From: Chiloscyllium plagiosum
Lineage: Eukaryota
Assembly: GCF_004010195.1 (NCBI RefSeq)
Contig: NC_057719.1
Location: 33,102,973 to 33,153,671 of the forward strand
Reading direction: 5' to 3'
DNA length: 50,699 bases
The notes under the pieces: generated by a model
Databases searched by the model: none
What the model was told of the DNA's origin: nothing
Seen by the model: only the letters and a program-made list of their open reading frames with translations
Translations under genes and position numbers: made by a program
Shown: piece by piece, positions 10,537 through 45,665 of the stretch
How the letters are laid out: every line of letters starts with the position of its first letter
Numbering within the stretch: the stretch's first letter is position 1

Positions 10537-10733
10537 TTGTTGAAACTTTATTGCTGGAACAGCACAGCAGGTCAGGCAGCATCCAGGGAACAGGAGATTC
10601 GACGTTCCTGAAGAGGGGCCTGTGCCTGAAACGTCGAATCTCCTGTTCCCTGGATGCTGCCTGACCTGCTGTGCTGTTCCAGCAATAAAGTTTCAACTTT
10701 GATCTCCAGCATCTGCAGACCTCACTTTCTCCT
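10537..10733. mobile_element. Fold-back PLE terminal-repeat insert with perfect 68-bp arms and a 15-bp TSD
   Basis: Arms 10539-10606 and 10630-10697 are exact reverse complements. TSD catagagcatctcat at 10522-10536 and 10734-10748. Confidence 0.92.
10608..10635 (+). ncRNA. Minimal hammerhead ribozyme core (PLE-associated)
   Basis: ttc-CTGAAGA-g-gggc-ctgt-gcct-GAAACGTC-gaa. Stem II has one G-U pair and ttc/gaa can form stem I. Confidence 0.7.
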
Positions 10734-11254
10734 CATAGAGCATCTCATGCAAACCCTCCACCATCATTGTAATCCCACGCTTTTTTAGCATGGCCAAACT
10801 TTCTAACATGCATATCTTTGGACTGAGAGCAAACTGGAGCACACAGAAATGAGAAGAATGTATAAACTCCACACAGATAGTCACCCAAGACTGGATTTGA
10901 ACCTAGGTCACTGGTGCTAAGCAAGCAGGGTTAATCACTGAGCTACTATGCCACCATCATTGTCCATGGTGGAGCAGACTTGATTGGCTGAATGGCCTAC
11001 TTCAGCTCCAATGTCTTATGGTCTTAGTGTTTGAGGTGTAACCATTCAACGGAAACCCTACTGACAAAGATTTCTGACTGACGCCAACACTGATTAATTT
11101 GGCATATTCAGTGTTCAAGAAATCTTACCTTGGGGTACCCGTATAATTCTACCAATGATTGGTTATTGCCCATCAATCAAATAGAGAATTTGTGACTCCA
11201 TAGTAAAGTGAATCCCCAGTGAAACCTGCATTTGCTGACAGTTGGAGATGGGGA

Positions 11255-11750
11255 ATAGAGCATCAATTCTGGTGTACATTTCTGGTCGCCCCATTACAGG
11301 AAGGATGTGGAGGCATTGGAAAAGGTGCAGAGGAGATTTACCAAGATGTTGTCTAGTCTGGAGGGAAGGTCTTATGAGGAAAATTGAGAGACTTGTATAT
11401 GTTCTCATTGGAAAGAAGAAGGCTAAAAGGGGATTTGATAGAGACATACAAGATGATCAGAGGGTTAGATAGGGTAGACAGTGGAAGTCTTTTTCCTGGA
11501 ATGATAATGTCAGCTTGTACGAGGGGGCATAGATTTAAGACAGATGTCAGAGGCAGGTTCTTTACTCAGAGAGCAGTAAGGGCATGGAATGCCCTACCTG
11601 CTAATGTAGTTAACTCAGCCACCTTAGGGAGATTTAAACAATCCTTGGATAAACACATGGATGATGATGGGGTAGTGTAGGGGGATTGGCTCAGATTAGT
11701 TCATAGATCAGGGCAACATCAAGGGCCAAAGGGCCTGTTCTACACTGTTT
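11255..11750 (+). mobile_element. CR1 LINE 3' end
   Basis: ORF 11384-11680 FSLERRRLKGDLIETYKMIRGLDRVD...FFTQRAVRAWNALP. Confidence 0.9.
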
Positions 11751-12299
11751 AATGAAAAGCAAAAAGTCTTCTCCAAGAATTCCACTTAGTGGAGCAGACT
11801 GCTGGTGAGTGAGAGACACATTTGTAAGGAGATGAAATTTAGCATTACCATGAAACTTGAACAACTATCCCCACAGTGGTATCTTCAATCTTTTGGAGAT
11901 TGCAGTGCTGAGAGACTATAATGCATTGTTATATTTCCTCTGTCTCTGTGCCTTTGTGTTTCTCTATTGCACTATTTTGTAATTTAAGGTTACAGGAGTT
12001 TCTGGAACAGCATAACAAGCATCAGCAGCTGGAGTGCAGCAAAGCACATCTGAGTTGCTGGTGCATCCCACAACCGCATCAGCTTCCATGCTTTGTAAAT
12101 GGGTCTGGTCACCAGTTTGGAGTGAAGAGGTAACAATCAGTGCTCACCCGGAAAAGAACACTGGATATGGGGGAACTGGATGTGAGAGGACTGTGACAAA
12201 GGGCACTGTTTGCACGACCTGTATCTGTGAATCTTGGCTTGAATTCCTTAGAGACAATGTCCCAGACACCACCATCACCATCCCTAAATATATCCTGTC

Positions 12300-12590
12300 T
12301 CACTTCCATCTCAAAGGCAGCAGGTATATGGGAACACCACCAGCTGCATGTTCCTTCCAAGTCAGTCACCATCCTGACTAGGAAATATGTCACCATTCCT
12401 TCACTGTTGCTGGGTCAAAATCCTGGAATTCCCTCCCTCAGGTCATTGTGGGCTAACCTATAGGATGTGGACTGCAGCAGTTCAAGAAGGCAGCTCACCA
12501 CCACCTTCTCAAGGACAACCAGGGATGAGCAATAAACACTGGCCAGCCAGCGATGCCCACATCCAACATATGAATAAACAAATGAAAAAA
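12300..12590 (+). mobile_element. LINE (CR1/L2 clade) 3' end with a gggatg..caataaa..tggcc..gccagcgatgcccac tail
   Basis: Same sequence family as 37400-37670, and the same tail as the SINE at 25385-25725. Confidence 0.7.
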
Positions 12591-13276
12591 GCTGCTGTGA
12601 AAAGGAGCTGGAATTTTATTGGAGAAAGCTCAGAGATTTGAGGGAATTTGTGGCTGAAATTACTACCAAATTTAATCCTACTTAAATTATCCAAGAGCTC
12701 CATTGGGTCTATATTTGGTGTTTCTCCTATTCAATGCATATTTTCTATTTCCTATTAACCACTATTTGACTTTCAATTCATGTTTGTCAATGAAGCCAAA
12801 ATCAACATAAATTCAAATGAAGCTGAAATCTTGCCCATTGATTTCCTAGTCTGGTCTGTTATTTTGGTTTATTGGTCTCCAGACAGTTATGACAATATTA
12901 AAATGCACAGATACTGCTAGGACTGTGTCCTGATCCCTATTTTGACAGCTACTTTCTTCTCCATGAACCTGAGCTTTATGTTCCTATTGAATAATAAATT
13001 TCTTTACTACCTCAATGAAATTCTTGTAAGTCATTCTGTGGTGATTATTATTGAAGATTATTGTTATATTTGTACTTTTGGATCGATGTCAAAGATCTAT
13101 ATAAAAACATAGCAGGCATTACATTGGGCCTTTTCCATTGCTTCTATGTCAGTTATGAAGTTCATAATAATTGTGTTAAATGTCAAAACTTGGGCAGAAC
13201 CTGAGATGGTGCAAGAATGTATTTTTCAATGTAGGAAAATTGAACTAATTTGGGAATATTTAATCTCTCAAATCAT

Positions 13277-13481
13277 AATGTTTGATACTTCTGATGTCCA
13301 ATGTAACATTGTAAAAACAGCAATATCCTCTGAAAAGTTACATATACATTTTGAAGACTCATCGGTAAATCATTCGTAATTGTTTCACACTGGCGATCTG
13401 ATTGTTTCATATTACCCAACACAAGGAACATCAATTGTTGTTTTTACAACTTTACATTGGACATCAGGAGAATCAAACATT
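13277..13481. mobile_element. Fold-back / MITE-like inverted repeat
   Basis: 48-bp arms 13277-13324 and 13434-13481, 43/48 complementary, 109-bp spacer. Confidence 0.65.
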
Positions 13482-16400: not shown

Positions 16401-16629
16401 TTTCTTGTCAATAGCAGATGTTGAGATAGTGGTCTGTATGTTACTCCAGATAGGTTTGGGTATTTAATGGCTTTTTGGCAGAAATCCAATTTCCCTCTCC
16501 ATTTTCAACTCTGCATTTTTCCTCAGCCCTTTTGCAAATCAGTTGTTCCAATATGTAAAATACAGACACACACACACACACCCTCTACTGAGGCTGCGAT
16601 CACTGTTTTCAATCAAGGAGGAAAAGTGA

Positions 16630-16927
16630 GGCGGCACAGTGGCTCAGTGGTTAGTGCTGCTGCCTCACAGCACCAGGGACTTGGGTTTGATTCCTGCCTC
16701 AGGCGATTGTCTGTGTGGAGTTTGCACATTCTCTGAGTGTCTGTGTGGGTTTTCTCCAGGTGCTCCGGTTTCCTCCCACAATCTGAAGAGGAGCAGGTCA
16801 GGTGAATTGGCCGTGCTAAATTGCCCATAGTGTTAGGTGCATTAGTCAGAGGGGTTACTCTTCGGAGGGTTGGTGTGGACTTCTTGGGCTAAAGGACCTG
16901 TTTCCACATTGTAGGGAATCTAATCTA
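16630..16927 (+). mobile_element. HE1-type V-SINE, full length
   Basis: A-box tggctcagtgg, B-box ggtttgattcc, V-domain, tail ggaatctaatcta. Confidence 0.92.
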
Positions 16928-18350
16928 AAAAAAATCAAATCTCCACTAGTGTACCAATTTTGTTTCATTGCTTAAGGTTTTGGAAACCTATTGAAACATT
17001 CCATTTTTTGAGAGTCAGTGAAGAAAATGGAAAGCCTGCTGAGCAGTCAGGAGCATTTTGGAAGGTAAATGTGAAGTGCTTTCAAATCTTCAAATATCAT
17101 TATTTGCTGCAAAATCACAAAGTAAATGTGCTTTTCATGCTGAGGTTCATCACGGACATTTGACCTTTGAAGACAAGTGCATCCTTCCATTGAGCAACTC
17201 TGTGTATTTGTTCTCATGCATCACATTATAATTCTGATGGAGAAAACACCATAATGTGTGAAAAGTATTACTTGTGAACATATGAATTAGAAGCATGGGA
17301 CCACTCAGCCTTCTAAGCATGTTCTGCCACTCAAAGGCTTCATGGCTAATTGTATCAAATCTCAATTTTGCCTACCCCTCACAACCTTTCACGATCTACC
17401 TTGTAAAAATAACTTATTGACCTATGCCTTAAAAATATTGAAAAACTTTATTTCCACTGGCTTTTGAGGAAGAAAGTTCCAACCCTCTGCAAGGAAAATT
17501 CTCCCCATCTCTGTCATAATTAGGCAACTCCTTAATTTAAAACAGTGGCCACTAGTTCTAGAGATTCTCGTGAGAGGGAACATCCTTTCCACATCCTCTC
17601 TGTCAAGACCCTTCAGAATCTTATATGTTTCAATCAAATCACCTCCAAAACTTAGTGAATGAGAACCTTGCTCATCATTCCACATAAGACAATACACCCA
17701 TTCTTGGTCTAGTAAACTTTTTCTGAACATTTATATCATTCTAGTGCATTTATATTATTCCATACCTAAGAGAACACTACTGTACACAATATCCAAAGGT
17801 GATCTCACCGATGTCTTGTTTAATTGAAGCACAACCTTTTCACCTTTGTATTCCATTCCCCTCACAATAAACAATAACATTCTATTCATTTTCCTAATTA
17901 CTCAATGTACTTGTAGACTAAGCTTTCGTTATTCATGCACTGGGACACCCAGATCATTCTGTAACGCAGAGCTTTGTACTTCTCACCATGTCGCTAAAAT
18001 GTTTTTTTTCTTTTATTCCTATTGAAATTGGCATTTGTACCATATGTCATGTTATACTCCATGTGCCAAATTGTTGTCCATTCATTTAACCTTCACTTCT
18101 TTGAATCCTTGTGAAGCATCCTTTCATCCCCTCTTCAATTTACATTGCTGTTTATTTTTGTGTCATCAGCAAACTTAGCCACCATATCTGCAGTCCCTTC
18201 ATCAAAGCCATTTGTAAAAATTATAAAATGTTGAGGTCCCAGCACTGATTCTTGTGGCATCATTATATTTTGCCTACCAGAACATGACTCATTATTGCCA
18301 ATCTTTTCCTGTTAACCAGCCAGTCTTCTATCCATGCTAGTATATTACCT

Positions 18351-18479
18351 TCCTGAAGAAGGGCTTATGCCCGAAACGTCGATTCTCCTGTTCCCTGGAT
18401 GCTGCCTGACCTGCTACGCTTTTCCAGCAATACATTTTCAGCTCTGATCTCCAGCATCTGCAGACCTCACTTTCTCCCC
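18351..18479 (+). mobile_element. Solo PLE terminal-repeat insert (129 bp) with a 12-bp TSD
   Basis: TSD agtatattacct at 18339-18350 and 18480-18491. Ends in ctccagcatctgcagacctcactttctcc. Confidence 0.92.
18353..18380 (+). ncRNA. Minimal hammerhead ribozyme core, intact
   Basis: CTGAAGA-a-GGGC-ttat-GCCC-GAAACGTC, with perfect stem II and a GUC cleavage triplet. Confidence 0.78.
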
Positions 18480-19006
18480 AGTATATTACCTCAAACTTGT
18501 AGTCACTGCAACAACTTTTTGATATGGAACCTCATCAAAAGTTTTCTGAAGATCGAAGTACTGCATTTCCACTAGTTCTCCTTTATCCACAACACACATT
18601 ACTTCCTCAAAGAACTCTAATAAATGCTTAAATGTGATATCCTTTTTGAAAAAACCATACTGACCACTGACTGATTACTTTAGGCCTTTCTGAGGCCCCT
18701 GCTGTAACTTCTGTCATCACAATGTCTACCATCTGCCATACAACATTTAAGCTAACTGACCTGTGGTTTCCTGCTCTGTTTCCCTTTTAAAATAAAGGAC
18801 TAACACTCACTATATTCCAATCTAATGGAGCTTTCCAGAATCTAAGATATTTTGGAAATTTAAAACCAACATCTCAATTTTCTCAATAGCCACTTGCTTT
18901 AAGACCCGAGGCTGAAGTCTAACATGACCTCAAGAGACTTGTCAGCCTGCAACTCCAATCATTTGCTTAGAAATACTTCCCTGAAAATTGTAATGTTGAG
19001 GTCCTG

Positions 19007-22000
19007 CCCTCTTTCCATTTCCTGATTCAAACTATTGCTGAGATATTTCCTGTATCACCTGCAGTGAAAACTGATGCAAAATGCTGATTCAATCCATCTG
19101 CTATCTGCTTATTTTCCATTATTAATTCTCCAAATATACTTGCTATAGGAATAGCAAGCTCTTTGTAAACTCTTTTCAGTTTCAAATATATACTACCTGT
19201 TTTTCATTTTTCCAGATAGTGTTCTCACATATCAACTTTTTTCCTCCTTTTAGTCAATTTTGCTGTTTTTATGTTGTATCCAAACTTCTGACTTGCCACA
19301 CATCTTTGCGTAATTATTTTCTTTTTAATTATGCTTGAGATTATCTTTAATTCTTTTAGTTAACACAGAGTCCACCTTTGGAATTTTTCTTTCTCTTTGG
19401 AATTATCTATCATGTGTATTCTGTACGGTCTCCTGAGATGTCAGACATTGCTGGTGATATATCCCTTAAGCTAAAAAAAAAGAATTGCAGTTGCTGCAAA
19501 TTGGAAATAAAAACAGAAATTGATGTAGAAACTCAACAGGTCTGGCAGCATCTGTGCAAAGAAAACAGGGTTGATGTTTTGGATCCAGTGACCCTTCTTC
19601 CTAACTGATTGTAGCTAGGAAAAGGAAAAGATAGATGTTGAAGATGAAGTGGGATATGCGGGACTGACTGAACGAGAGGTGGACATGGAGCCCAGAGAGA
19701 GAAAACAGAAATTGGGCAGTCAAAGGCATTGTTAAAGGTCGATCTGGGAGAATCAATAGCTGCTATTGGCTGACCTTTACCCATTCCTTGTCTCTCCCAT
19801 CTATCATAATTTATACTTGGCCATTCTGTATTTGCTACCAAATTGGATAACCTCACAATTCACTGTTATCCTGAATTTGGCATGTATTTGCCAATTCATT
19901 CAACTTGTATGAATTACTTTGAACTCTTTTTACATCCTCTTGAAACCTTTTTACTCTCAATTCTTCCTGGGTTTGTGTTGTCAGTAAACTTTAAAATAGT
20001 ACGTTTGATTGCCTCATTCAAATCATTGATATAAATTGTAAATTGCTGTGAATGTAAAATTCTACCATATTATGATCACTGTTACCTAGCTAATCTTGTA
20101 AGCACTGTAACCTTTGCTTTGAGATAATTAGTTAATACCAAATGAAGTGCAGTCTGTTCTCTGGTTAGCTCCAGAACATGCTGTTCTCGGGAAGTAACCC
20201 AGAAATAGTATATGAGCTCCTCATTTAGGCCGCCGTTGACAATCTAATTTTTCCAGGTTATATACAAATTAAAATCTTCCATGATTCTCACCATATTTAT
20301 CCGGGAAACTCACATTGTTTCTTATTTATGCTCCAACATACCATGTGGTTACCATGGAATGGGTGGGGGTATTGGGAGAGGGGTTTGGGTGTCGGTTATA
20401 AACACGTTTCACAAGTTAGCTCATATTTTTATTATTTCTCATCTCTGTCCAAATCACTTGTATACCATCACTTAGTTCACTCCTTGTTATTCTGCTGGTA
20501 TCATGATTAGTTAACAGAATCATTCCTCCATTTTCCCTAGCTTCTTGACTTTCCAAATTATCAAGTACACTTCAATGTTCAGATCTCAATCTACATCATT
20601 CCATAGCCACATCTCATAGTGGTTAGTTGATTATACTTATTCATATTTATTTTCATTACCAGTTCAATGTTTTGTATCAAATGTTGCATTTGTTCAGAGA
20701 CACAGCCTTTGGTTTGGTCAATTTATTATTTTTGTAATCTCCAAGGTGTAACTGTTGATTTACACTTACACATATTCTCTCTCTATTTCTTCCAGCCACA
20801 ATTTGTTTATCATTTCCCAGNNNNNNNNNNNNNNNNNNNNNNNNNNNNNNNNNNNNNNNNNNNNNNNNNNNNNNNNNNNNNNNNNNNNNNNNNNNNNNNN
20901 NNNNNNNNNNNNNNNNNNNNNNNNNNNNNNNNNNNNNNNNNNNNNNNNNNNNNNNNNNNNNNNNNNNNNNNNNNNNNNNNNNNNNNNNNNNNNNNNNNNN
21001 NNNNNNNNNNNNNNNNNNNNNNNNNNNNNNNNNNNNNNNNNNNNNNNNNNNNNNNNNNNNNNNNNNNNNNNNNNNNNNNNNNNNNNNNNNNNNNNNNNNN
21101 NNNNNNNNNNNNNNNNNNNNNNNNNNNNNNNNNNNNNNNNNNNNNNNNNNNNNNNNNNNNNNNNNNNNNNNNNNNNNNNNNNNNNNNNNNNNNNNNNNNN
21201 NNNNNNNNNNNNNNNNNNNNNNNNNNNNNNNNNNNNNNNNNNNNNNNNNNNNNNNNNNNNNNNNNNNNNNNNNNNNNNNNNNNNNNNNNNNNNNNNNNNN
21301 NNNNNNNNNNNNNNNNNNNNCCCTCTTTCCATTTCCTGATTCAAACTATTGCTGAGATATTTCCTGTATCACCTGCAGTGAAAACTGATGCAAAATGCTG
21401 ATTCAATCCATCTGCTATCTGCTTATTTTCCATTATTAATTCTCCAAATATACTTGCTATAGGAATAGCAAGCTCTTTGTAAACTCTTTTCAGTTTCAAA
21501 TATATACTACCTGTTTTTCATTTTTCCAGATAGTGTTCTCACATATCAACTTTTTTCCTCCTTTTAGTCAATTTTGCTGTTTTTATGTTGTATCCAAACT
21601 TCTGACTTGCCACACATCTTTGCGTAATTATTTTCTTTTTAATTATGCTTGAGATTATCTTTAATTCTTTTAGTTAACACAGAGTCCACCTTTGGAATTT
21701 TTCTTTCTCTTTGGAATTATCTATCATGTGTATTCTGTACGGTCTCCTGAGATGTCAGACATTGCTGGTGATATATCCCTTAAGCTAAAAAAAAGAAAGA
21801 ATTGCAGTTGCTGCAAATTGGAAATAAAAACAGAAATTGCTGTAGAAACTCAACAGGTCTGGCAGCATCTGTGCAAAGAAAACAGGGTTGATGTTTTGGA
21901 TCCAGTGACCCTTCTTCCTAACTGATTGTAGCTAGGAAAAGGAAAAGATAGATGTTGAAGATGAAGTGGGATATGCGGGACTGACTGAACGAGAGGTGGA

Positions 22001-25725: not shown

Positions 25726-25740
25726 GTTGTACAAGAGCAG

Positions 25741-26839
25741 AGGTAAAAACAATGACTGCAGATGCTGGAAACCAGATTCTGGATCAGTGGTGCTGGAAGA
25801 GCACAGCAATTCAGGCAGCATCCGAGGACAAGCAAAATCGACGTTTCGGGCAAAAGCCCTTCATCAGGAATAAAGGCAGAGAGCCTGAAGCGTGGAGAGA
25901 TAAGCTAGAGGAGGGTGGGGGTCGGGATAGAGTAGCATANNNNNNNNNNNNNNNNNNNNNNNNNNNNNNNNNNNNNNNNNNNNNNNNNNNNNNNNNNNNN
26001 NNNNNNNNNNNNNNNNNNNNNNNNNNNNNNNNNNNNNNNNNNNNNNNNNNNNNNNNNNNNNNNNNNNNNNNNNNNNNNNNNNNNNNNNNNNNNNNNNNNN
26101 NNNNNNNNNNNNNNNNNNNNNNNNNNNNNNNNNNNNNNNNNNNNNNNNNNNNNNNNNNNNNNNNNNNNNNNNNNNNNNNNNNNNNNNNNNNNNNNNNNNN
26201 NNNNNNNNNNNNNNNNNNNNNNNNNNNNNNNNNNNNNNNNNNNNNNNNNNNNNNNNNNNNNNNNNNNNNNNNNNNNNNNNNNNNNNNNNNNNNNNNNNNN
26301 NNNNNNNNNNNNNNNNNNGGACCTGACCAGGTAGTCACGGATGGAACGGTCTTTGCGGAAGGCGGAGAGTGGTGGGGAGGGAAATATATCCCTGGTGGTG
26401 GGGTCTGTTTGGAGGTGGCGGAAATGTCGGCGGATGATTTGGTTTATGCGAAGGTTGGTAGGGTGGAAGGTGAGCACCATGGGCGTTCTGTCCTTGTTGC
26501 GGTTGGAGGGGTTGGGACTGAGGGCGGAGGTGCGGGATGTTGACGAGATGCGTTGGAGGGCATCTTTAACCATGTGGGAAGGGAAATTGCGGTCTCTAGA
26601 GAAGGAGGCCATCTGGTGTGTTCTATGGTGGAACCCCTGGGAGCAGATACGGCGGAGGCGGAGGAATTGGGAATACGGGATGGCATTTTTGCAAGATGTA
26701 GGGTGGGAAGAGGTGTAATCCAGGTAGCTGTGGGAGTCGGTGGGTTTGTAGAAAATGTCAGTGTCAAGTCGGTCGTCACTGATGGAGATGGAGAGGTCCA
26801 GGAAGGGGAGGGAGATGTCAGAGATGGTCCAGGTAAATT
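25741..26839 (-). mobile_element. PLE 3' portion: RT thumb/linker coding region, N gap (25940-26318) and terminal repeat with hammerhead
   Basis: Minus ORF FTWTISDISLPFLDLSISI...FYKPTDSHSYLDYTSSHP..CKNAIPYSQFLRLRRICS, typical of Neptune-like PLE RT C-termini. Confidence 0.92.
25840..25867 (-). ncRNA. Minimal hammerhead ribozyme core, intact, in the terminal repeat of an ORF-bearing PLE
   Basis: Minus strand attc-CTGATGA-a-GGGC-tttt-GCCC-GAAACGTC-gatt. Confidence 0.8.
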
Positions 26840-26879
26840 TGGCAACACTAGACAAAACTACCCAGACCTACCTTTGCAA

Positions 26880-29056: not shown

Positions 29057-29371
29057 TTATTCAAACAGGGCTTCCATCATTCACGGGGTCTTGATACAAT
29101 AAGTCATGGGCATTATCCAACTTTAGTCAGGGGCTTGGAGATGATCAGTTGACCACTTCAGGTAAACATGATCAGGCAGTGAATATCACTTTGGTCCAGA
29201 GATTTGGCTTCAGTCAGCCTTCAGGATCCATTGCAATCAATCAGAAGATTTTTAATAGGTCAGTGAGGGTGCAACACCAAGATCAGTTGGAGTCTGGTCA
29301 GTTATCAAAGTCTTGTAACAAGTCATGTTGAACAATATCGACAATCTGGAAATTGTTGAACACTGGAAATT

Positions 29372-29773
29372 GGTTTGCTCGCTGAGCTGGACAGTTCATT
29401 TCCAGATGTTTTGTTACCCTACTAGGTAACATCTTCAGTGTGCCTCAGGCAAAGCAATGCTGAAAATTCCTGCTTTCTATTTATATGTTTGGGTTTCTTT
29501 GGGTTGGTGATGTTATTTCCTGTGGTGAAGTCACTTCCTGTTCCTTTTCTCAGGGGGTGGTAGATGGGGTCTAACTTGATTTGTGACATCACCAACCCAA
29601 AGAAACCCAAACATAGAAATAGAAAGCAGGAATTTTCAGCATTGCTTCACTTGAGGCCCACTGAAGACATTACCTAGTAGATCAACAAAATGTCTAGAAA
29701 TGAAGCTTCCTGCTCAGCGAGCAAACCTACATCCAAAACCTCAACCTGAGCTACAAATCTTCTCAAAACTCAC
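29372..29773. mobile_element. Fold-back PLE terminal repeats (third family) with decayed hammerhead cores
   Basis: About 142-bp inverted arms 29372-29513 and 29586-29727. Minus strand 29405-29438 reads CTGAAGA-t-GTTACC-tagtag-GGTAAC-aAAAC-aTC, i.e. two CpG-type G>A changes from GAAACGTC. Confidence 0.75.
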
Positions 29774-29789
29774 ATGAAAGAGTACCAAT

Positions 29790-30330: not shown

Positions 30331-32559
30331 GCCTAGGACATCTTGTACATGACAGTCCCATTAAATAGAGCTGTGCTGTTGATCTAGATAGATAGAGTGA
30401 AGTTTGTTATGATTAAGAATTCAAGTACATACAGAGCATGGATCAGCAATATTCAACTGTTTTATGGCTCTGAATCAGTCTTATAGTTAGTCCCATAGAT
30501 TGAAGAAGTGAAGGCAGATATTTTACTTTTGTAAAAACAAGAATCAGTCAAGCAACAGATCGGATTTTCTGTCTTTATACATTTAAGTCATTCACCAGCT
30601 ATAAATCTCATGCATTAAAGTATTTTGAAAGGGCTTGGCTTCTGAGAGTTTGGATCTTACAATCAAGTATATGAATTTTTGGATGGTAATTGGTAGTGCC
30701 TTCTCTAGAGGTTCTCAGAGCATGACAAAATATTATGGGGGAGGGATCTATTCAGCTCATTCTAATTTATTTATCCCGAAAGCTCTTAATTATGAAATCC
30801 AATTTGTTTTTCAAATTATTTCAAGGATTTAGCCTTAGTTGTCTATGGAGAAAGCTGTTCCACCTTCAGTCATTGTATGAAGAAGAATTTCTTGATATTC
30901 ATCACAAAATTACTAGTTTAAAATTGCACTGGCTGGTCCTTCTTCTTTAAAGTTAATTTAAAGACATATTCCATGTTTACTTTCTCCATGCACTAAACAA
31001 TTTGTAAAATGTATAAGGTCAACTTTCAAACATTTTGTACTGGGTTTGAAAGGTAAAGGGAGAAGTATTGACTTTGGCTGCTTCGTATAAACAAAGCCAT
31101 CATTCCAATTAAAATAGAAAGAAATTTATAATGAGAAGATAAAGAAAGAGTTGGTAGGAGAAAGGGTGGAATAAAGTAGAGAAGGGAATAGAAGATTAAA
31201 TCAGAGTTTGGGATTACCCTCAAGATTTATTTGGACATTATCAACACCACTTCCAGCTTTGTTTGACAAGAATTAGTTTAAAGAGTTCAAACTTCCAAAA
31301 TTATAATGTGGGAATAATCATCAAATGAATTCATAAAAGCTGGGACGATGGCAATGTTAGGACTGTGTCTTTTTGTTTTGTTTTAATACTGTGGACTGAA
31401 ATGAGAAAGCTGTTTTAAAGCCAGCATTTAAAAGGGTGGCTATATGTTTTGAAAGGAAGTAACCTGACGCGGGGTCCATTATAGTGTTGATTCAGAATAA
31501 GTACTTTTCACATTAGCTGCAGGTATGCTTAAATGTAATTTTATGCTCACATTTCTTACAGCAAGGAAAGATATACCCAGAAGCATGCCACAACATTCTA
31601 ACACTCCATAATATCTATGGACAAATTGGTGACAAATTGCAAAGTAAAAAAATAAAATATTTTGTCAGATAATTCTATAGTATGTAGTATTTAAGGCTTT
31701 AAGTTGACCAAACACCTCATGCTGAGAGTACAATCTGCCCTCAGTTCCACAATACAATAATATTATCAAATATCAATAGCCTTTGAGTGGAAAACAACAT
31801 TTTCAGAGAAGTTGTAGTCTCCACAAAGTAAAATCTATCCTTGAGAAATAGAAGTGAATATTCTGCAATATTGTCAGCTTTTTAATTAAAGCAAGTGGAA
31901 ATCCATGGAGAATTAATTAGAAAGTATGCCAAATCTCATTCTACTGCTTACATAATTTGAATTTCATCTTTTGACCTCTCGTTCTCTGCTGACACACAAA
32001 GATGAGAATGAATTTTGCATTGTGGAAAGAGGCTAAAGAGAATGCAAAACCTATATTGTGTTTTCCTCATGTCATCAGCAGGGGTCAACAACTGAGCACA
32101 CTCCAGTAATATTGGAGAAAATTGAAACATGTATTTAGGATTTAGATAGTTAACACCAGAAATGGTCTTCTGAGAAGAGTGCAAAAATTAAAGAGTTGAA
32201 TAGCCTGATGGTGTGTTTCACAGTATCCACAGAATGACACTTTTGGCAAAATGACTCAATGATTTGTATTTTCGTTTTTTTTAAAAGATACATGACTTTG
32301 AATCTATTATAAACATTTGCCTTTACAAAGCATTGTACCCCATTTTTTGTGTCATCCTATCAATACCCATTGGAACAAATGGATAAATAATGGATAAATG
32401 AATTTTACCAGTCTCAGCCTATAACTTGGAACACATTTGTCTCAGATACATTCAAGTCATTCAGATGCCCATACTGTTCTCAGTGCACTATAGTATACTA
32501 CAGTCACCTATTTCTCCAAATATTTCCTTCTCTCAATGTGAGGGAAATTACATGAGAGC

Positions 32560-32652
32560 TGAAAATGTGTTGCTGGAAAAGCACAGCAGGTCAGGCAGCA
32601 TCCAAGGAGCAGGAGAATCGACGTTTCGGGCATGAGCCCTTCTTCAGGAATC
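32560..32652 (-). mobile_element. Solo PLE terminal-repeat insert (93 bp) with a 14-bp TSD
   Basis: TSD aattacatgagagc at 32546-32559 and 32653-32666. Confidence 0.92.
32620..32647 (-). ncRNA. Minimal hammerhead ribozyme core, intact
   Basis: Minus strand gattc-CTGAAGA-a-GGGC-tcat-GCCC-GAAACGTC-gatt. Confidence 0.78.
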
Positions 32653-33129
32653 AATTACATGAGAGCCAGTTTCTCATAGCAGAACCAATCAAAATAGTTG
32701 CTGTGAAATGAATTGCTTTTACATTGGCATGATTTTGAGTTGGGCACTCAGTTCCTTGTAATAATATTGCTATGTCAACCTGATATTTTCAAAGTAATTA
32801 AAGGTTTGAAGGTACACCATGAAGAATGGCTTCTACCAGTTAGCAAATTAATGAAAAGAGGGCATTGATTACCACTCTAAAGACAAAGAGAGAATTAGAA
32901 GAATCTATTCATGGAGAGACATGACAAAATGAAACTTTTTTTGTACAGATGTCTATTTAGGCTGAGAGCGTAAAATAAGCTGTTGGTGAAAAGGAAATTG
33001 CATATGTATTTGGAAGGGAGAAAAGAAGAAAAAGAAGGTAATACAATATAAGGAAAAATCACAGAAATAAGATTAAAACAGCAAAATCTAATTTCAAGAA
33101 CAATCACAATCACTTGGATCAATGTAAGA

Positions 33130-33925
33130 AATTCTGGAAAATGTCAGCAGGTATGACAGCATCCATGGAGATAAAACAGAGTTAACGTTTTGGGTCCAGT
33201 GACCCTTCTTCAGGAAAAAGGTGTTTTTTATGTAGAAGATAGAGTGGGGGATGGGGGTGGGGGGTGAGGTGGAAATGATTGGTAGAGATACAACCCAAAG
33301 AGAGAGGAGGACAGTTGGACAGACAAAGGAGTGGATAATGATCAGCCTTGGAGAATGAATAGCTACTAACAGGGACTATTTATGGCTAACATTAGGTTGT
33401 GTGTTTTAGCAGACCACATTATAACAAGGCCTGGTATATGGGGGTTGGGGAAAGGACATGAGGGAAGGTGCCTCAAGATCTAAAATTGTTGAACTCAATA
33501 TTGGGTCCTAAAGGCTGTAGAGTTCCCAAGTGGTAAATGAGATGCTGTTCTTCCAGCTTGTTCTTCCTTGAAAACTGCTGCAAGACAGATGGAGATGTTG
33601 GCCAGGGAACACAGTAGTGTTTGAAGTGGCAGGAAATTGGATGCTCAGGATCTTTTTATGCGGGCAGAACGTAGGTGGTGCAAAGTGGTAACCCAGTCTA
33701 TGCTTCATTTCCCCAATGTAGAGGAGACCACGGTGCAGTAGACTAGAATGAGTGAAGTGCAGGTAGAATGCTGCTTCACCTGGAAGGTGCATTTGGGCCC
33801 TTGGATACTGAGGGGGGAAGAAGTAAACAGGGCAGGTAATACACCTCCTGCAGTTGCAAGGTATGGTGCCATTGGGCTGCAGGAGGGAGTGTGTTGGGAG
33901 TGAGGGAGGAGTAGACGGATAGTCT
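33130..33925 (-). mobile_element. Older PLE 3' part: Cys-rich linker, GIY-YIG endonuclease remnant and terminal repeat
   Basis: Minus ORF GTIPCNCRRCITCP...GLLYIGEMKHRLGYHFA. Terminal core at 33184-33213 reads CTGAAGA-a-GGGTC-actg-GACCC-aAAACGTT (G>A in GAAA). Confidence 0.85.
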
Positions 33926-35344
33926 AGCGAAAGAACGGTCCAAACATTGAAAGCAGGCTTAAAGAAGCAGTCTACTGTATCAATTGAGACCAAACTGTCC
34001 TAGTTCCTGTTCAATTGTAGGACCATTACACAGGCGACAACAGGAATAGCTCCAGCAGAGTTGCAGATGGGGGGAAGGCACCTCACCACATTAAACATGA
34101 TATTCCAGACCTGGAGAGGTGGGTGAAATGGCAGCAGGAACGCTAATGCCAGTCACATACTGCCTCTAAGCAAGAGGGACAATTTAATTCAGGGGATGCA
34201 GTTTGTGCCAGGACAATGGAAATGGCCTAGTGTGTGTACGAAGCAAGGTGAATGCGAGGTCAGGTCCCATGCCTTACAAAGTTTGGGTAGAGGATGCAGT
34301 CCGGAACAAACACATTGATCACCTGAAAGCTATTACCTCACAAACAGGGTAGGAGCAAAACATACCTGGCCTCTCAGAACAGCCAGGAACCCTGCCTGAA
34401 ACCACAGCCGTACCCCCCTCCATCTGGTGTTGGGGAAATCTCAGAGCCCGAGATGAATCCAGCTTCGATACCATTATCACTGGAAGAAGAGGAGAAAACC
34501 CCTGAGATGCTCTGGACGCACACGTCCCCGGAAATTGTTGGGGGTGGGGGGGGGGGTGGGGGGAACTGTTGCGTTTGGAGCCAGGATGAGAGTGTGATGC
34601 TGGAAAAGCACAGCAGGTCAGGCAGCATCCCTAAAGAGCAGGAGAATCAACATTTTGGACATAAGCCCTTCATCAGGAATGACTGATGAAGGGCTTATGC
34701 CTGAAAATTTGATTCTCCTGCTCCTTGGATGCTGTCTGACCTGCCGTGCTTTTCCAGCATCACATTCTCGATTCTGATCTCCAGCATCTGCAGTCCTCAC
34801 TTTCTCCTTTGGAACCAGGTTGACATTGTTGAGTACAAGGTCAGTGAATGGAGTTGTCAACCTGGGCCAATCAGGCCCTAGCTGACCAACATAACCAGGA
34901 GATAGGTTTTCAGGGTGAAGTGGGCACTGCAGGGTGTGGAGTGTTTTATTTTCCCCTCTGATTCTATTTTGATTTAATCTCTGCCCTCCTCTTCACCTTT
35001 TTAGGTTACTCAGGCAGTGCCCTGTGTTGAGAAGGGTACTACTGGTCACTCAGGTGTTTCTTTTCTTCCTGGTGGTGGAATATGAATAATGATTTCTGCA
35101 CTCGACGTTTCTTCACTATTTCCTACACCTGCACACACTCAACATGGGTCCAGGGGAGAAATAAGCACTACTGCTGTTTGGCGCTGGTGTGAGAATTTAC
35201 AAAAAGAAAAAAATATGCAGATGAGAATCTCCTCAGCTCAGGCAACTGACTCTGAGATGTGAGCTGCTCACAGCCAGTGTACTGTGCACAAGTAAACAAA
35301 GGGTGACTGGGTGATAGGACACCAGCCTCTGTGCTGTCATTTCA
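33925..35344 (+). mobile_element. Gypsy-type LTR retrotransposon 3' remnant: integrase C-terminus, polypurine tract and interrupted LTR
   Basis: Plus translation RTVQTLKAGLKKQ..IETKLS*FLFNCRTITQATTGIAPAELQMG. G-rich tract at about 34540-34565 directly followed by TG (34567). Putative LTR ends ...atttCA at 35344. Confidence 0.7.
34586..34807. mobile_element. Head-to-head PLE terminal-repeat pair inserted in the LTR; two decayed hammerhead cores
   Basis: ...gcccttcatcag-gaatga-CTGATGAagggcttatgcctgaaa... Flanked by tttggagccagg (34574-85) and tttggaaccagg (34808-19). Confidence 0.85.
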
Positions 35345-36189: not shown

Positions 36190-36992
36190 TGGGCTGAGAA
36201 GTGGCAGATGGAGTTTAATTCAGATAAATGTGAGGTGCTGTATTTTGGGAAAGCAAATCTTAGCAGGATGTATACACTTAATGGTAAGGTCCTAGAGAGT
36301 GTTGCTGAACAAAGAGACCTTGGAGTGCAGGTTCATAGCTCCTTGAAAGTGGAGTCACAGGTTGACAGGATAGTGAAGAAGGCGTTTGGTATGCTTTCTT
36401 TTGTTGGTCAGAGTATTGAGTACAGGAGTTGGGAGGTCATGTTGCGGCTCTAGAGGACATTGGTTAGGCTACAGTTGGAATAGTGCATGTAATTCTGGTC
36501 TCCTTCCTATCGGAAAGATGTTGTGAAACTTGAAAGGGTTCAGAAAAGATTTACAAGGATGTTGCCAGGGTTGGAGGATTTGAGATATAGGGAGAGGCTG
36601 AACAGTCTGGGGCTGTTTTCCCTTGAGCATTGGACCTTAAAGAGGTTTACAAAATTATGAGGAGCATGGATAGGGTAAATAGGCAAAGTCTTTTCCCTGG
36701 GTTTGGGGAGTCCTGAACTAGTGGCATAGATTTAGGGTGAGAGGGGAAAGATATAAAAGAGACCTAAGGGGCAACCTTTTCACACAGAGAGTGGTACGGG
36801 TATGGAATGTGCTGCCAGAGGAAGTGGTGGAGGCTGGTACAATTGCAACATTTAAGAGGCATTTGGATGGGTATATGAATAGGAAGAGTTTGGAGGATGC
36901 TGACAGGTGGGACTAGATTGGGTTGGGATATCTGGGCAGCATGGACGGGTTGGACCGAAGGGTCTGTTTCCATGCTGTACATGTCTATGACT
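36190..36992 (+). mobile_element. CR1/HER1-type LINE 3' end, same young family as 7483-8385
   Basis: ORF WAEKWQMEFNSDKCEVLYFG...QRDLGVQVHSSLKV. Tail ttggaccgaagggtctgtttccatgctgta..tctatgact. Confidence 0.95.
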
Positions 36993-37399
36993 CGATATAC
37001 ATTGACTGTTAACTGTTTCGAAGCTTGAACCTGTACCCCACTCACTCTTCTCTAACTTGGTTTTACCGAAAACTTTAAAAAGAAACATTTGGTATTCTCT
37101 GCATATTTACTGAACCATTAAAATCTCATTTGAATTACGACAAACACTCTTGTATTGCTGTACTGTATGACTGAACAATATTCTTGGATTTATTGGCCAT
37201 TCCAGAACAATATTTGATTTGCTTCATTAAGTATCCACTTGCATTAATGAAACTTTGCAATGTTTAATCTTATAATTACTGCCAAATAGAAAGTCATTGT
37301 ATGCATTTAAACAACAAGTTATCATTATCCTCAGGATATCCTCATTATGTTTTTGAGTCATCGAATTGTTTTGAAGAACATCAAAACAAGTTAAGATAT

Positions 37400-37670: not shown

Positions 37671-37689
37671 CTGCTCACACATCTCCAGT

Positions 37690-38740: not shown

Positions 38741-38749
38741 GATTTGAAA

Positions 38750-40557: not shown

Positions 40558-41057
40558 TGTGTGGATTTACCCTCAAACAGCCACTCCCAATCTATTTTTC
40601 CCAGTTCCTGTATAATAGTGTGATAGTTAGCCTTCCTTCACTCATCTGCTTTACCAGCTGTCATATTCCTCACATTAAAACAAATACACTTCAGACTGCC
40701 AGTCCCTGTATTCAGTAACTACTCTCTGTTTGTTCTTCCTCTTAGCCTTACTGGCCTTAGTCCTGAACTCCTCTCTCGTCATTTCACTTGCTGACCTACT
40801 GCTTTGATTCCCACCTCCCTACCACATGAGCTAGAATAATACAGCGGCTTGTGCACAGAGGTAATGGGCCAGGTCTGTGAGGTGCTGTTGTAGGTAATAC
40901 AGTGCAACCTGCGTGATATGTCCTGCAGCTTCTATCAGCAGCAAGAACAAGTGAACTCCTTTGACCTTAACATTGTCAAACTTCTTGAGCGTTGTTGTTG
41001 TTGCAGATGAGGGGTGAATATTTCACTTCGCTTCTGATTTGAATCTCATAAATAGAT

Positions 41058-41458
41058 TCATAGAGTCGTAGAGATGTACAACACAGAAACAGGCCCTTCA
41101 GTACAACTCATCCATGCTGACTAGATATCCTAAATTAATTGATTATTTGGCCCATATCCCTCGAAACTTTTCCTATTCATATATCCATCCAAATGCCTTT
41201 TAAATGTTGCATTTGTACTAGCCTCCACCACTTCCACTGGCAGTTCATCCCATACACATACCATGCTCTGCATGAAAAGGTTGCCCCTTAGCTCCCTTCT
41301 AAATCTTTCACCACTCACCTTAAACCTATGTCTTCTAGTTTTGGACTCCCCACCACAGGGAAAAAACCTTGCCTATTTACCCTATCCATACCCCTTATAA
41401 ATCTCTGTAAGATCACCCCTCAGCCTGTGATACTCCAGGGAAAATAGCCCCAACCTAG
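41058..41458 (-). mobile_element. CR1/HER1-type LINE 3' end
   Basis: Minus ORF GERFRRELRGNLFMQSMVCVWDELPVEVVEA..TFKRHLDGYM. Confidence 0.9.
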
Positions 41459-43071: not shown

Positions 43072-44125
43072 GCTGAAAAGAGACACATTTTGTCAAAGTG
43101 TTTCATCTTGCAGTCATCAAGATGGTTTGAAAACGTTTCAATTAAGGGAAAATCCAAAATTTATACTGTCTGAGGTGACTGGCTGACAAGTCTGATTAGT
43201 AGAGGCATTGCCATGGCAAATGTATCAATTAATGTTGACTAAAAGTCAAAGTCAACTGCAATGTACTGTTTAAATTCTGATTGGCAAAGGCTTTGCCCTG
43301 AGAAATGAACCAGTGAATGGGTATTGCCTATTTTGTTAAGTTGAAACAGGTATGGTGCGAGTTCATGGTGTCTGCAAAGAACAGAGCCCTAAGTTTTAAT
43401 ATATGCAACTTATAATACATGGAGAAAGTGAGGTCTGCAGATGCTGGAGATCAAAGTTGAAACTTTATTGCTGGAACAAAACAGGTATGGTGCGAGTTCA
43501 TGGTGTCTGCAAAGAACAGAGCCCTAAGTTTTAATATATGCAACTTATAATACATGCAACAGCATGACACTGTGAACCCAACTGACAATCCTAAATCCCT
43601 TCACACGCTTGGGATTATCCAGCAAATATTGTTCAATTGCGGAATCACATTTAATGTTGGATGTTTTGTAAGTCTGGGTTGGTTGGGTGTAGTCAGTACC
43701 CTGCTTGTTGCAAACAGCCAAATGGATATTTGTTTGATACATCATCCATGTTAGGATGTACGGTTTTCATGACACGATATCAACACCAAAGCAATATGTG
43801 CAAAATCCTCTTTATTACGGACAGAAAAACATATACATATATTGTATCTGCTTCAACTACACAAAATTTGGTGATAGCTATTTGTTGGCTCATTTTTCAG
43901 GGCATTGCCTTGACCAGAGTCAACTTGCCTGTTTTAAATTTTAATAGAAGCCTGATAATTAACAGTTAGTCATCATTACGTGATGAGTTTATGTGGCATT
44001 AAATAAATCACTATCCAATTACCAACTAATCAATTATCTTCTCTCATACAGTATAAATATTGGTTTTCCCTTAAATTGGTATTCTTGTGAATTGTCCTAA
44101 TGTGTACAAAAGGATGAACTTGAAT
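43072..44125 (-). mobile_element. Old PLE (fourth family): GIY-YIG C-terminal remnant between inverted terminal repeats
   Basis: Minus ORF 43545-43745 (CDSAIEQYLLDNP...FRIVS..HSVMLLHVL). 43130-43350 is inverted relative to about 43845-44110. Decayed core ttgatga-ctgcaagat-gaaac on the minus strand at about 43100-43130. Confidence 0.65.
43422..43478 (-). mobile_element. 57-bp PLE extreme 3' terminus flanked by an exact 78-bp duplication
   Basis: Insert matches the revcomp of 10675-10731. Identical repeats at 43344-43421 and 43479-43556. Confidence 0.9.
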
Positions 44126-44128
44126 AAA

Positions 44129-44442
44129 GGGTGGCACAGTGGCTTAGTGGTTAGCACTGCTGCCTCACAGCAATAGGGTCCCAAGTTCGATTCCAGCCTT
44201 GGGCGACTATCTGTGTGGAGTTTGCACGTTTTCTCTGTGTCTACATGGGTTTCCTCCAGGTGCTCTGGTTTCCTCCCACAGTCCAAAGATGTGCAGGTTA
44301 GGTGAACTGGCCATGCTAAATTGCCCATAGTGATAGGTGTATTAGTCAGAGGGAAATGGGTCTGGGTGGGTTCCTCTTCGGAGGGTCGGTGTGGATTGGT
44401 TGGACCAAAGGGCTTGTTTCCACACTGTAGGGAATTTAATCT
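44129..44442 (+). mobile_element. HE1-type V-SINE, full length
   Basis: A-box tggcttagtgg, B-box agttcgattcc, V-domain and CR1-like tail. Confidence 0.92.
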
Positions 44443-44614
44443 CTAAAATTTGTCATTTTTTCAACAATACCAGTTTGTATGCAAAGAGTGCCATGAGAAG
44501 GTGTTGACTTCTATAAAAATATATTGTACGAAAACTTCCTCACCACAGATAGTGGGGGAAATGAAACTCAGCAAAAAATGAGCTCATTGTGCTCTTTAGC
44601 ACTTCCTTCCAGTT

Positions 44615-45150
44615 GCAGCCCTCATCTTAACTGGTTGCACTCTTATTGCAAGGTCAGAAGATCATCGGTTCAATTCACACTCTCAAGGCTTGAACCATTG
44701 ATGTTAACGTTCCATTGGAAAGGCTGTGAGCTTTTTAAGTAGAGATTGGGAGATTGAGAGGTGACCATGTAAAAGTTTATAAAATCATGAGGGGGCATAG
44801 AGAAGGTAAATAGCAGATGTCTTTTCCCTAGGGTTGGGGATTTCAAGACAAAGGGTGCATATTTAAAGTGAGAAGAGAAAAATAAAAAAAAACATGAGGG
44901 GCAACGTTTTTACAGAGTGGTTTTTGTGTAGAATGAACTGCCAGAAGAACTGGTGGATGCAGCTACAGCTACATATGAAACTAACTGAAGAAGAAATAGT
45001 GATTTTCTGTTTGATGACATAGCAAATATATATTCTTCAACCAATATAACAAAGCAGATGTGTCTGATCATTGTCACATGACTCGGAGTTTCTTGTGTCC
45101 AGTTTGACTGACATATTCCCAACCTGAAAACAGATACTGCCATTCAAAAG
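44615..45150 (+). mobile_element. Degenerate Deu-domain SINE split by a CR1 3' fragment (about 44745-44975)
   Basis: Head gcactctt..gtcagaagat..ggttcaatt. CR1 piece aaagtttataaaatcatgaggggg..aatgaactgccaga. Deu-like cttcaaccaatataac..cagatgtgtctgatcattgtcacat. Confidence 0.5.
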
Positions 45151-45535
45151 GCTGGAAGTTGTCAATGACACTGTTTAAAAGCAGGGTATCATTCCATTCA
45201 CAGAACTGTATGCAAGCAGCATTAGAGACCCAAGGTATTATCTAATAGAACTGGAAGACTCAGATAGATACTCTAAAAACCTAATTTTATATTTACTTTT
45301 TTAACAATACTGTTTGAACAATTATTTGGGTACTCTAAAGATGACAGTAACAATGTGTCACAGTAAAAAAGTTGATAAAATAACTAAAAATAATAATCAT
45401 AATTTTACCCACTATTCAGAATCTTCCTTTGCTGCCCTGCTAAAGGGATGACATCAATACACTTCACTTTTAAAAACAAAATACATAAATGTTTAGAAAA
45501 TAGGAACAGGGTTAGGCCATCTGGTCCTTTGATTT

Positions 45536-45665
45536 TGGAGAAAGTGGGGACTGCAGATGCTGGATATCAGAGTCAAAAAGTGTGGTGCTGGAAAAGCACA
45601 GCCGGTCAGGCAGTATCCAAAGAGCAGGAGAGTTGACGTTTCAAGCATAAGCCCTTCATCAGGAT
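45536..45665 (-). mobile_element. Solo PLE terminal-repeat insert inside a CR1 tail
   Basis: ggagaaagtggggactgcagatgctgga...gcccttcatcagg. Same family as 18351. Confidence 0.85.
45635..45662 (-). ncRNA. Hammerhead ribozyme core with weakened stem II
   Basis: Minus strand CTGATGA-a-gggc-ttat-gctt-GAAACGTC; stem II has two G-U pairs. Confidence 0.6.

What the first reader, a model, noticed from the sequence alone, without database searches (positions are those of the whole stretch)
10608..45662. Multi-family set of minimal hammerhead ribozymes in PLE termini
Seen: near-intact CTGANGA-a-GGGC-NNNN-GCCC-GAAACGTC cores at 18353-18380 (+), 25840-25867 (-), 32620-32647 (-), 10608-10635 (+) and 45635-45662 (-). 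The stem II loop varies (ttat, tttt, tcat, ctgt) while pairing is kept. Other families use different stem II sequences: GGGTC/GACCC at 33184-33213, GTTACC/GGTAAC at 29405-29438, GGAGC/GCTCC at about 1992-2015. That cross-family covariation argues for a real RNA structure. Established: PLE terminal repeats carry minimal hammerheads. Inference: stem III is reduced to the palindrome ACGT with no loop, so cleavage after GUC should need dimerisation of two cores. The 25840 core is linked to a PLE RT ORF across a scaffold gap.
Basis: partly seen in the sequence, partly recalled or inferred. Interest (0 to 1): 0.7.

Follow-up and report, generated by a model that had tools for sequence, protein, structure and literature searches.

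The report
Shark Penelope hammerheads, mostly fossil stubs
These short motifs are real minimal hammerhead-ribozyme sequences of a kind already published for Penelope-like jumping genes, present in over 200,000 copies in this shark-type genome; the window's copies are likely inert, but many copies begin right at the front of the motif with an extra G, which likely means the element copies an uncut, capped RNA rather than the self-cut one.

Summary
The motifs are real: 9 descriptor matches in the window, none in 100 shuffles, and 229,462 genome-wide against 1,230 for the control. They are the loop-less "min-HHR" that Cervera and de la Peña (PMC4209133) defined in Penelope-like element (PLE) terminal repeats, with the dimer model already proposed and tested there.

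Covariation holds between families in stems I, II and III, including ACGU versus AGCU. Gap-free sister copies confirm the link from 25840 to an RT–GIY-YIG ORF. Only three cited cores are exact. The others are decayed or locked in hairpins, and copies decay at CpG rates even at catalytic G12.

A non-templated G is enriched there (3,638 G, 1,262 A, 916 T). This suggests run-off copying of capped, uncut RNA. The scan noted the same pattern earlier on other DNA (e1-8023086, e1-8026454). Cleavage itself is untested.

The parts
18350..18477 (+). Solo terminal-repeat stub, GGGC family (TTAT loop): exact min-HHR core 18353-18380 (predicted cut after 18380) plus about 97-nt tail
   Evidence: 12-nt target-site duplication at 18339-18350 and 18480-18491
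32552..32652 (-). Solo stub, GGGC family (TCAT loop): exact core 32620-32647; starts at the A of ATTC (32651) with one extra G at 32652 between the target duplication and the element
   Evidence: 14-nt duplication at 32546-32559 and 32653-32666
25741..25939 (-). 3' UTR, exact core 25840-25867 (TTTT loop) and tail of a 5'-truncated Neptune-type PLE
25940..26318 (.). 379-N scaffold gap where sister copies carry the CX4CxxC linker and GIY-YIG endonuclease
   Evidence: 10 of 35 loci examined bridge it without N
26319..26840 (-). C-terminal part of the PLE reverse-transcriptase ORF (thumb region), 87.5% identical to the near-full-length copy L049
10539..10732 (.). Head-to-head pair, GGGC family (CTGT loop): inverted arm 10539-10606(-) plus stub 10605-10732(+) with core 10608-10635; the arm pairs over the cut site
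45537..45664 (-). Older solo stub, GGGC family; core 45635-45662 with weakened stems I and II
   Evidence: 84% to reference copy
34587..34808 (.).
33134..33213 (-). GGGTC-family stub; core 33184-33213 with G12 lost
33482..33918 (-). Decayed Cys-linker and GIY-YIG remnant 270-700 nt upstream of the 33213 core on the same strand; same element likely, not shown
   Evidence: tblastn E 1e-5 to 7e-3
29364..29738 (.). Head-to-head pair of the GTYRCC (Poseidon-type) family; decayed cores 29405-29438(-) and 29661-29694(+)
1939..2107 (.). GGAGC-family stub 1989-2107(+) with degraded core 1992-2020 and inverted tail arm 1939-1989(-)
4532..4690 (.). Head-to-head GGGC pair lacking a full core; source of the Rfam miRNA-like hits
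19479..21924 (-). Two decayed GGGTC stubs (19479-19607 and 21789-21924) inside a 1.8-kb duplication across an assembly gap

Best explanation
The motifs are minimal type I hammerhead sequences at the front of the terminal repeats of at least four abundant Penelope-like retrotransposon families, predicted to cut only when two cores pair through their 4-nt palindrome, while the scattered copies in this window are likely inert stubs made when reverse transcriptase likely runs off a capped, uncut RNA that starts at the ribozyme. Shown: motif, family-level pairing, ORF linkage, tandem pLTR-ORF-pLTR anatomy, CpG-rate decay, the pile-up of 5' ends and the extra G. Inferred: (1) Transcription of the Neptune-type families starts at the A of ATTC, the 5' strand of stem I. 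(2) RT primes internally at the tail about 100 nt downstream, as shown for anole Poseidon, so priming at the upstream repeat yields a 100-130-bp stub; two such events on opposite strands would give the head-to-head pairs. (3) In active masters cleavage needs a second core and probably the element's protein. (4) Because the cut falls 32 nt from the presumed cap and about 136 nt before the ATG, it would more likely switch the RNA off than produce the template (about 0.45 for this last step alone).
For: Counts versus reversed-pattern controls: 87,506/0, 229,462/1,230, 31,570/9, 1,423/0, 21,880/0. Dominant pairs differ by family. I.1: C-G, U-A or A-U. I.2: U-A, A-U or C-G. I.3: U-A, C-G or G-C (U.U in two GGGC subfamilies). 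15.2-16.2: C-G, or G-C in 33 of 37 GGAGC copies. L049 has cores about 3.38 kb apart flanking RT, CX4CxxC linker and GIY-YIG. GTYRCC cores lie 340-390 nt behind a GIY-YIG without that linker in 4 of 21 copies. G12, 11.1, 15.2, 16.2 and C17 deviate in 15-25% of 84 copies, like other CpG sites. 5' ends: 66 of 163 at -36..-26 versus 5 at -2..+3; GGAGC 15 of 53 versus 0. Base before ATTC: G 3,638, A 1,262, T 916, with G expected at 26%; second subfamily G 610, A 424. The G sits inside a clean target duplication in 8 of 13 G solos versus 1 of 12 A solos (p=0.011). Papers: PMC4209133 (dimer need, low activity), PMC11167929 (internal priming, protein-assisted cleavage, uncut RNA is the main substrate), PMC4859970 (untemplated G read as the cap in LINE-1/SVA).
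Against: No cleavage assay and no mapped start site. Reads from one RNA run showed no place where many molecules begin or end. The double-hammerhead fold was 5-20 kcal/mol above the best cofold in 8 of 8 cases. Stem I of the two largest subfamilies is only 2 bp, a U.U, then A-U. The Poseidon-type family shows no pile-up (0 of 14). An initiator-like YYANWYY is common in GGGC (39/49, 21/49, 7/13) but rare in GGAGC (1/37) and GGGTC (2/16). 39 of 163 ends fall inside the core, and 6 of 30 non-inverted peak copies share upstream sequence and may not be true ends. In the second subfamily the G sat in a duplication no more often than A (2 of 10 versus 2 of 9 solos). The G could reflect target-site preference or short masters that begin with G.
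Confidence: 0.7

Rival explanations
1. Cleavage in both terminal repeats releases a unit-length RNA, possibly circularised, that is the real template (the model proposed in PMC4209133). The stubs are a side branch.
Against: Only 5 of 163, 0 of 53, 3 of 35 and 0 of 14 sampled copies start at the cut. In anole Poseidon, catalytic mutants did not affect insertion in vitro (PMC11167929). Circular templates copied past the joint would not leave ends at the cut, so this is weakened, not excluded.
Confidence: 0.13
2. The 100-130-bp stubs are their own non-autonomous family (retrozyme- or SINE-like), copied from short masters that happen to begin with G-ATTC.
For: Very high copy number, target-site duplications in 8 of 24 unshared solos versus 14 of 870 control pairs, and shared start point. 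Retrozymes derive from PLE repeats (bioRxiv 10.64898/2026.07.22.740005). No long copy of the CTGT subfamily was seen among the loci fetched.
Against: Stubs carry the same subfamily variants as ORF-linked repeats. The pile-up recurs in three families. None of the window's stubs is a tandem array. Even short masters would need a defined RNA start at this point.
Confidence: 0.1
3. The motif is kept as a protein-binding or promoter element and no longer cuts in these families.
For: Weak stem I and unfavourable predicted dimer fold. PLE clades without canonical hammerheads proliferate well (PMC8557442).
Against: All catalytic positions are fixed across families while N7, loop 2 and the paired positions vary compensatorily. 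The anole motif cuts with protein and shows C3G/G8C rescue (PMC11167929).
Confidence: 0.06
4. The matches are chance look-alikes inside an unrelated repeat.
For: Rfam gives no hammerhead hit; the core is short.
Against: 0 in 100 shuffles, about 190-fold excess genome-wide, compensatory changes in three helices, and position in PLE terminal repeats as published.
Confidence: 0.01

Closest known systems
min-HHR in pLTRs of metazoan PLEs (Cervera and de la Peña 2014, PMC4209133; parts 1-2 of 4 read, one supplement file searched, file 1 not searchable)
   Same: Conserved core with no helix III loop, palindromic 15.2-16.2, bulged base before G10.1-C11.1, short helix I, several families per genome, mostly single dispersed motifs, some opposite-strand pairs; reported in Neptune and Poseidon of fishes.
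   Different: Copy number (about 229,000 versus about 4,000 and 9,000 quoted for coelacanth and Xenopus, with other descriptors); stem II of 4-6 bp; stem I down to 2 bp; no shark example and no fixed 5' start described in the parts read.
Poseidon of Anolis carolinensis (PAc; Frangieh et al. 2024, PMC11167929; main text read)
   Same: Hammerhead in the pLTR, internal priming sites define the tail, both DNA strands are cut and extended, no RNA reads end at the cut site.
   Different: There the ORF starts inside stem II; in L049 the ATG lies about 136 nt after the cut. The main families here are Neptune-type. Stub 5' ends and an extra G are not described there.
Neptune/Nematis EN+ PLEs (Craig et al. 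2021, PMC8557442; passages)
   Same: RT, CX2-5CxxC linker, C-terminal GIY-YIG, 5'-truncated tandem and inverted copies.
   Different: Clade was assigned here from the linker motif only; no tree was built.
Non-LTR retrozymes of animals (bioRxiv 10.64898/2026.07.22.740005; first part and passages)
   Same: PLE-derived non-coding units with type I hammerheads, many monomers.
   Different: Defined by tandem arrays with a hammerhead in each unit; the window's copies are solo or head-to-head.
Untemplated 5' G of full-length LINE-1 and SVA insertions (PMC4859970; passages)
   Same: Extra G at a fixed 5' end, read as reverse transcription of the cap.
   Different: Here it marks 100-130-bp stubs made by a PLE enzyme; cap origin is inferred.

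Membership tests
PLE min-HHR | Core CUGANGA ... GAAA with U16.1 and a cleavable N17 | tested here: met
   Exact in 3 window copies; 229,462 genome-wide. Decayed in five other cited sites.
PLE min-HHR | Helix II with a bulged base and G10.1-C11.1, covarying between families | tested here: met
   Four stem II types with pairing kept; bulge A or U.
PLE min-HHR | No loop 3; palindromic 15.1-16.1 | tested here: met
   ACGU in three families, AGCU in 31,570 copies of the fourth.
PLE min-HHR | Short helix I closing the motif (type I) | tested here: met
   3-4 bp with compensatory changes in GGAGC, GGGTC, GTYRCC and CTGT; only 2 bp + U.U + 1 bp in two GGGC subfamilies.
PLE min-HHR | Located in both terminal repeats of a PLE ORF | tested here: met
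   L049 for the TTTT subfamily. One-sided ORF links for GTYRCC (4 of 21) and GGAGC (1 of 32); GGGTC only by proximity.
PLE min-HHR | Self-cleavage as a dimer, not as a monomer | not testable with these tools
   Folding only; RNA reads not diagnostic.
Neptune/Nematis-type EN+ PLE (GGGC family) | Single ORF: RT, CX2-5CxxC linker, C-terminal GIY-YIG | tested here: met
   CX4CxxC linker and YIGET motif in gap-free copies; GIY-YIG E=0.001, below Pfam cut-off; homologues carry PF00078 and PF01541.
Neptune/Nematis-type EN+ PLE (GGGC family) | RT phylogeny within the Neptune clade | not tested
   No named reference set was available; no tree built.
Non-LTR retrozyme | Tandem array with a hammerhead in each unit | tested here: not met
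   Window copies are solo or head-to-head. Arrays elsewhere in the genome were not searched for.
Canonical type I hammerhead (Rfam models) | Intramolecular stem III with a loop; Rfam match | tested here: not met
   No loop; no Rfam hammerhead among 10 matches at E<=5.

The most novel reading that the evidence does not exclude
In shark Neptune-type elements the transcription start is the first strand of the hammerhead itself. Capped, uncut RNA primed at the upstream tail is reverse-transcribed to its cap, seeding tens of thousands of 100-130-bp stubs with a cap-derived G. The ribozyme, armed only when the element's protein brings two cores together, would then act as a self-decapping off-switch rather than as the maker of the template.
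Probability: 0.45. Interest if true: 0.55.

Novelty: new member of a known kind. Interest (0 to 1): 0.3.

Why it matters
The finding as given repeats a 2014 result in a new lineage at very high copy number. The role of PLE hammerheads is still open: the papers read call it unclear, and in vitro cleavage is dispensable for insertion. This genome's tens of thousands of recent stubs record the template RNA's ends. They place the likely start 32 nt before the cut and show that copying mostly used uncut RNA. That turns the question into two cheap tests, cap mapping and protein-assisted cleavage.

Tried and rejected
Rfam scan at E<=5: no hammerhead; the miRNA-like hits are an inverted repeat pair.

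Pfam on eight window ORFs: none matched. PDB sequence search of the L049 RT-EN stretch: no match at E<=1.

Sequencing runs: no RNA holder listed. Raw reads of X19 laid on two copies (1,272 and 1,457 reads) came from both directions. About 95% ran on into unrelated sequence, with no pile of molecule ends. X20 laid none, and X4 contigs cannot show ends. This is read-through of dispersed copies and does not test either cleavage or the start site.

A splice acceptor at the motif's 5' edge, as described for D. virilis, was considered. It was set aside because no AG precedes ATTC in the GGGC subfamilies.

Explaining the G by inverted arms or 3' UTR point changes covers only 4 of 30 and 2 of 20 sampled G copies. 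The C count in the TTTT subfamily (2,343) is not a control, because C is templated in some subfamilies.

Lünse et al. (PMC5785218) is not held; only its title and a review's summary were seen. R-scape-type statistics were not run; pairs were counted per family instead, since copies within a family are not independent.

Literature searches for sharks or start sites gave no listing describing the fixed start or extra G. Subscription papers, Repbase entries and unseen supplements (Cervera file 1, the preprint's files) could.
Full report
OBSERVATION. All cited sites are present. Three are exact matches to the stated core: 18353(+), 25867(-) and 32647(-). The 10608 and 45662 copies carry G.U substitutions in stem II. 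The 33213 and 29438 copies have lost G12, and the 1992 copy has lost G8, G12 and its palindrome. A relaxed descriptor finds 9 cores in the window and none in any of 100 dinucleotide shuffles. BLAST with natural family members lists 19 terminal-repeat pieces in the window, five groups of them head-to-head pairs. Rfam reports no hammerhead among 10 matches at E<=5, as expected for a motif with no stem III loop.

GENOME SCALE. The window lies in a 3.56-Gb genome. The nearest named proteins to its element come from bamboo shark (86-89% among the top hits) and whale shark. Exact matches versus reversed-pattern controls: GGGC core 87,506/0, general descriptor 229,462/1,230, AGCU-palindrome form 31,570/9, GGGTC 1,423/0, GTYRCC 21,880/0.

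STRUCTURE. Loop variation within GGGC copies says little, since their stem is inherited. Between families the pairing is kept by different bases (188 cores in seven groups, with loci chosen by a stem I pattern left out). Stem I pair 1 is C-G (GGGC, GGAGC), U-A (GGGTC) or A-U (GTYRCC). Pair 2 is U-A, A-U or C-G. Pair 3 is U-A (CTGT), C-G (GGAGC), G-C (GGGTC and one GTYRCC group, 13 of 14) or U-A (the other group, 7 of 10). Positions 15.2-16.2 are C-G except in GGAGC, where they are G-C in 33 of 37; both give a 4-nt palindrome. Against this, the two largest subfamilies have U.U at pair 3. A monomer cannot close stem III with no loop. A two-strand double hammerhead can be drawn for all 8 copies tried, but it lies 5-20 kcal/mol above the best cofold (the model ignores core non-canonical pairs). 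This fits the low activity reported for such motifs.

LINK TO THE PLE. Of 35 loci examined (one is the window itself, two are the same place), 10 bridge the window's gap without N. They run from the RT end to the same 3' UTR and core, 224-610 nt apart, most through a CX4CxxC linker and a YIGET motif. The three longest span 585-610 nt, so the 379-N gap is either under-sized or hides a deletion. L049 shows core and tail, an ATG at 2093, RT, linker, endonuclease, then core and tail again, about 3.38 kb apart. Both of its cores are themselves mutated. Pfam gives GIY-YIG at E=0.001, under its cut-off, and 802 homologues at E<=1e-20 include proteins with PF00078 and PF01541. The linker marks Neptune/Nematis type (PMC8557442, passages). 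GTYRCC cores follow a GIY-YIG without that linker in 4 of 21 copies, the Penelope/Poseidon pattern. GGAGC does so in 1 of 32.

ARE THE COPIES WORKING? In 84 copies found by their tails, G12, 11.1, 15.2, 16.2 and C17 deviate in 15-25%, the CpG rate. Other core bases deviate in 0-8%, like invariant tail bases. Subfamily-level variation falls on N7, loop 2 and the tail. Constraint therefore acted on the masters, not on the inserted copies. In the window's head-to-head pairs a read-through RNA folds into long hairpins that cover the cut site. No two intact same-strand cores lie closer than 6.7 kb.

WHERE COPIES BEGIN. I searched 103 evenly placed 10-kb stretches (1.03 Mb) with tail sequence only. 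Of 185 tails, 178 could be scored and 15 were dropped (11 another family, 4 next to N). Of 163, 66 begin at -36..-26 from the predicted cut, with the mode at -32/-31, the A of ATTC. Five begin at -2..+3, 39 inside the core, 14 further 3', 22 at -129..-37, and 17 run to the end of the reference. The peak holds for copies with (39 of 74) and without (27 of 89) an inverted partner. Six of 30 non-inverted peak copies share upstream sequence and may be artefacts of missing references. Eight of the other 24 have target duplications of 8 nt or more, against 14 of 870 mismatched pairs. GGAGC shows the same (15 of 53 at the edge, 0 at the cut). GGGTC gives 18 of 35 versus 3, but its reference reached only 6 nt upstream and some rows are GGGC copies. 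GTYRCC shows none (0 of 14).

THE EXTRA G. Excluding copies with G one base further up, the base before ATTC in the CTGAAGA/TNAT subfamily is G 3,638, A 1,262 and T 916 times, where composition predicts 26% G. In the TTTT subfamily it is G 610 and A 424. Inverted arms or UTR point changes explain 4 of 30 and 2 of 20 sampled G copies. Among TNAT solos the base lies inside a clean target duplication in 8 of 13 G copies but 1 of 12 A copies. The TTTT samples show no such difference (2 of 10, 2 of 9). The window's 32647 copy has exactly one G between duplication and element. In LINE-1 and SVA such a G is read as the copied cap (PMC4859970, passages). An initiator-like YYANWYY (consensus recalled) overlaps ATTC in GGGC but is rare in the other families. 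RNA reads gave no pile of ends and do not test this.

MECHANISM. Shown: motif, pairing, linkage, decay, end pile-up and G excess. From papers: min-HHRs do not cut alone and cut weakly as dimers (PMC4209133, results and discussion). The anole Poseidon protein primes internally at the tail, cuts and extends both strands, is predicted to dimerise, is needed for ribozyme cleavage and uses mainly uncut RNA (PMC11167929, main text). Penelope has an internal promoter in its repeat (PMC2377424, passages). Inferred: transcription starts at stem I; priming at the upstream tail runs off at the cap and yields the stubs; paired events give head-to-head copies, although self-priming on antisense RNA has been proposed for such pairs (PMC3846280, passages); cleavage in active elements would strip the cap or detach the tail and so more likely restrains than drives transposition.

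COMPARISON AND NOVELTY. The motif, its place, its multi-family nature and the dimer model are all in PMC4209133. A review repeats them and cites a paper on dimer cleavage that is not held (PMC6765202, passages). The sharp start with an extra G was not in the listings or passages seen. I reached it, before looking up earlier notes. The scan has recorded it on other DNA of this and other genomes (e1-8023086, e1-8026454, e1-8657567, e1-9286365), and one note reports starts at the cut site in another genome (e1-8851675). These notes are not independent evidence. Verdict: a correct catch and a new member of a known kind, interest 0.3, with a testable side result on how the element copies itself.

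Noticed in passing
window 19007-20820 and 21321-23137: A 1,817-nt stretch is repeated at 99.7% identity on both sides of the 500-N gap; likely an assembly overlap rather than a real duplication.
   Followed up: partly
window 4586-4678: The core-less head-to-head pair scores as miRNA precursor families in Rfam (best E 4e-8, below gathering score). Such pairs were 74 of 163 sampled copies and would give long double-stranded RNA on read-through.
   Followed up: partly
window 25780-25900; L023, L015: In the TTTT subfamily an upstream TTCAGGC is complementary to a downstream GCCTGAA, a possible distal extension of stem I (seen contexts); subfamily covariation not tested.
   Followed up: no
L032, L036, L038, L046, L050-L053, L055, L056, L058-L060, L062-L065: Assembly gaps fall over the endonuclease region in most fetched copies of this family, so intact elements are under-represented in this assembly.
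   Followed up: no
window 3900-4218, 16630-16933, 44130-44449, 47283-47605, 49696-49760: A dispersed repeat of about 300 nt with a GAATCTAATC-type end, probably a shark SINE (recalled, not tested).
   Followed up: no
window 7474-8303, 36192-36993, 41054-41365: Three related fragments, 83-93% alike, in both orientations; probably 3' ends of a LINE; no Pfam hit for the ORF at 7976-8467.
   Followed up: no
window 43344-43556: An exact 78-nt direct repeat 135 nt apart flanks a 67-nt tail-only PLE piece at 43418-43484; an unusually long target duplication or local duplication.
   Followed up: no
window 26889-26910 (-): A CTGATGA-hairpin-GGAA sequence just beyond the 5' break of the RT fragment; may be an old core of another family or chance.
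   Followed up: no
G000:C1:2619545-2619573 and 2619751-2619779 (-): Two identical AGCU-type cores 206 nt apart on one strand, a possible tandem, retrozyme-like arrangement.
   Followed up: no
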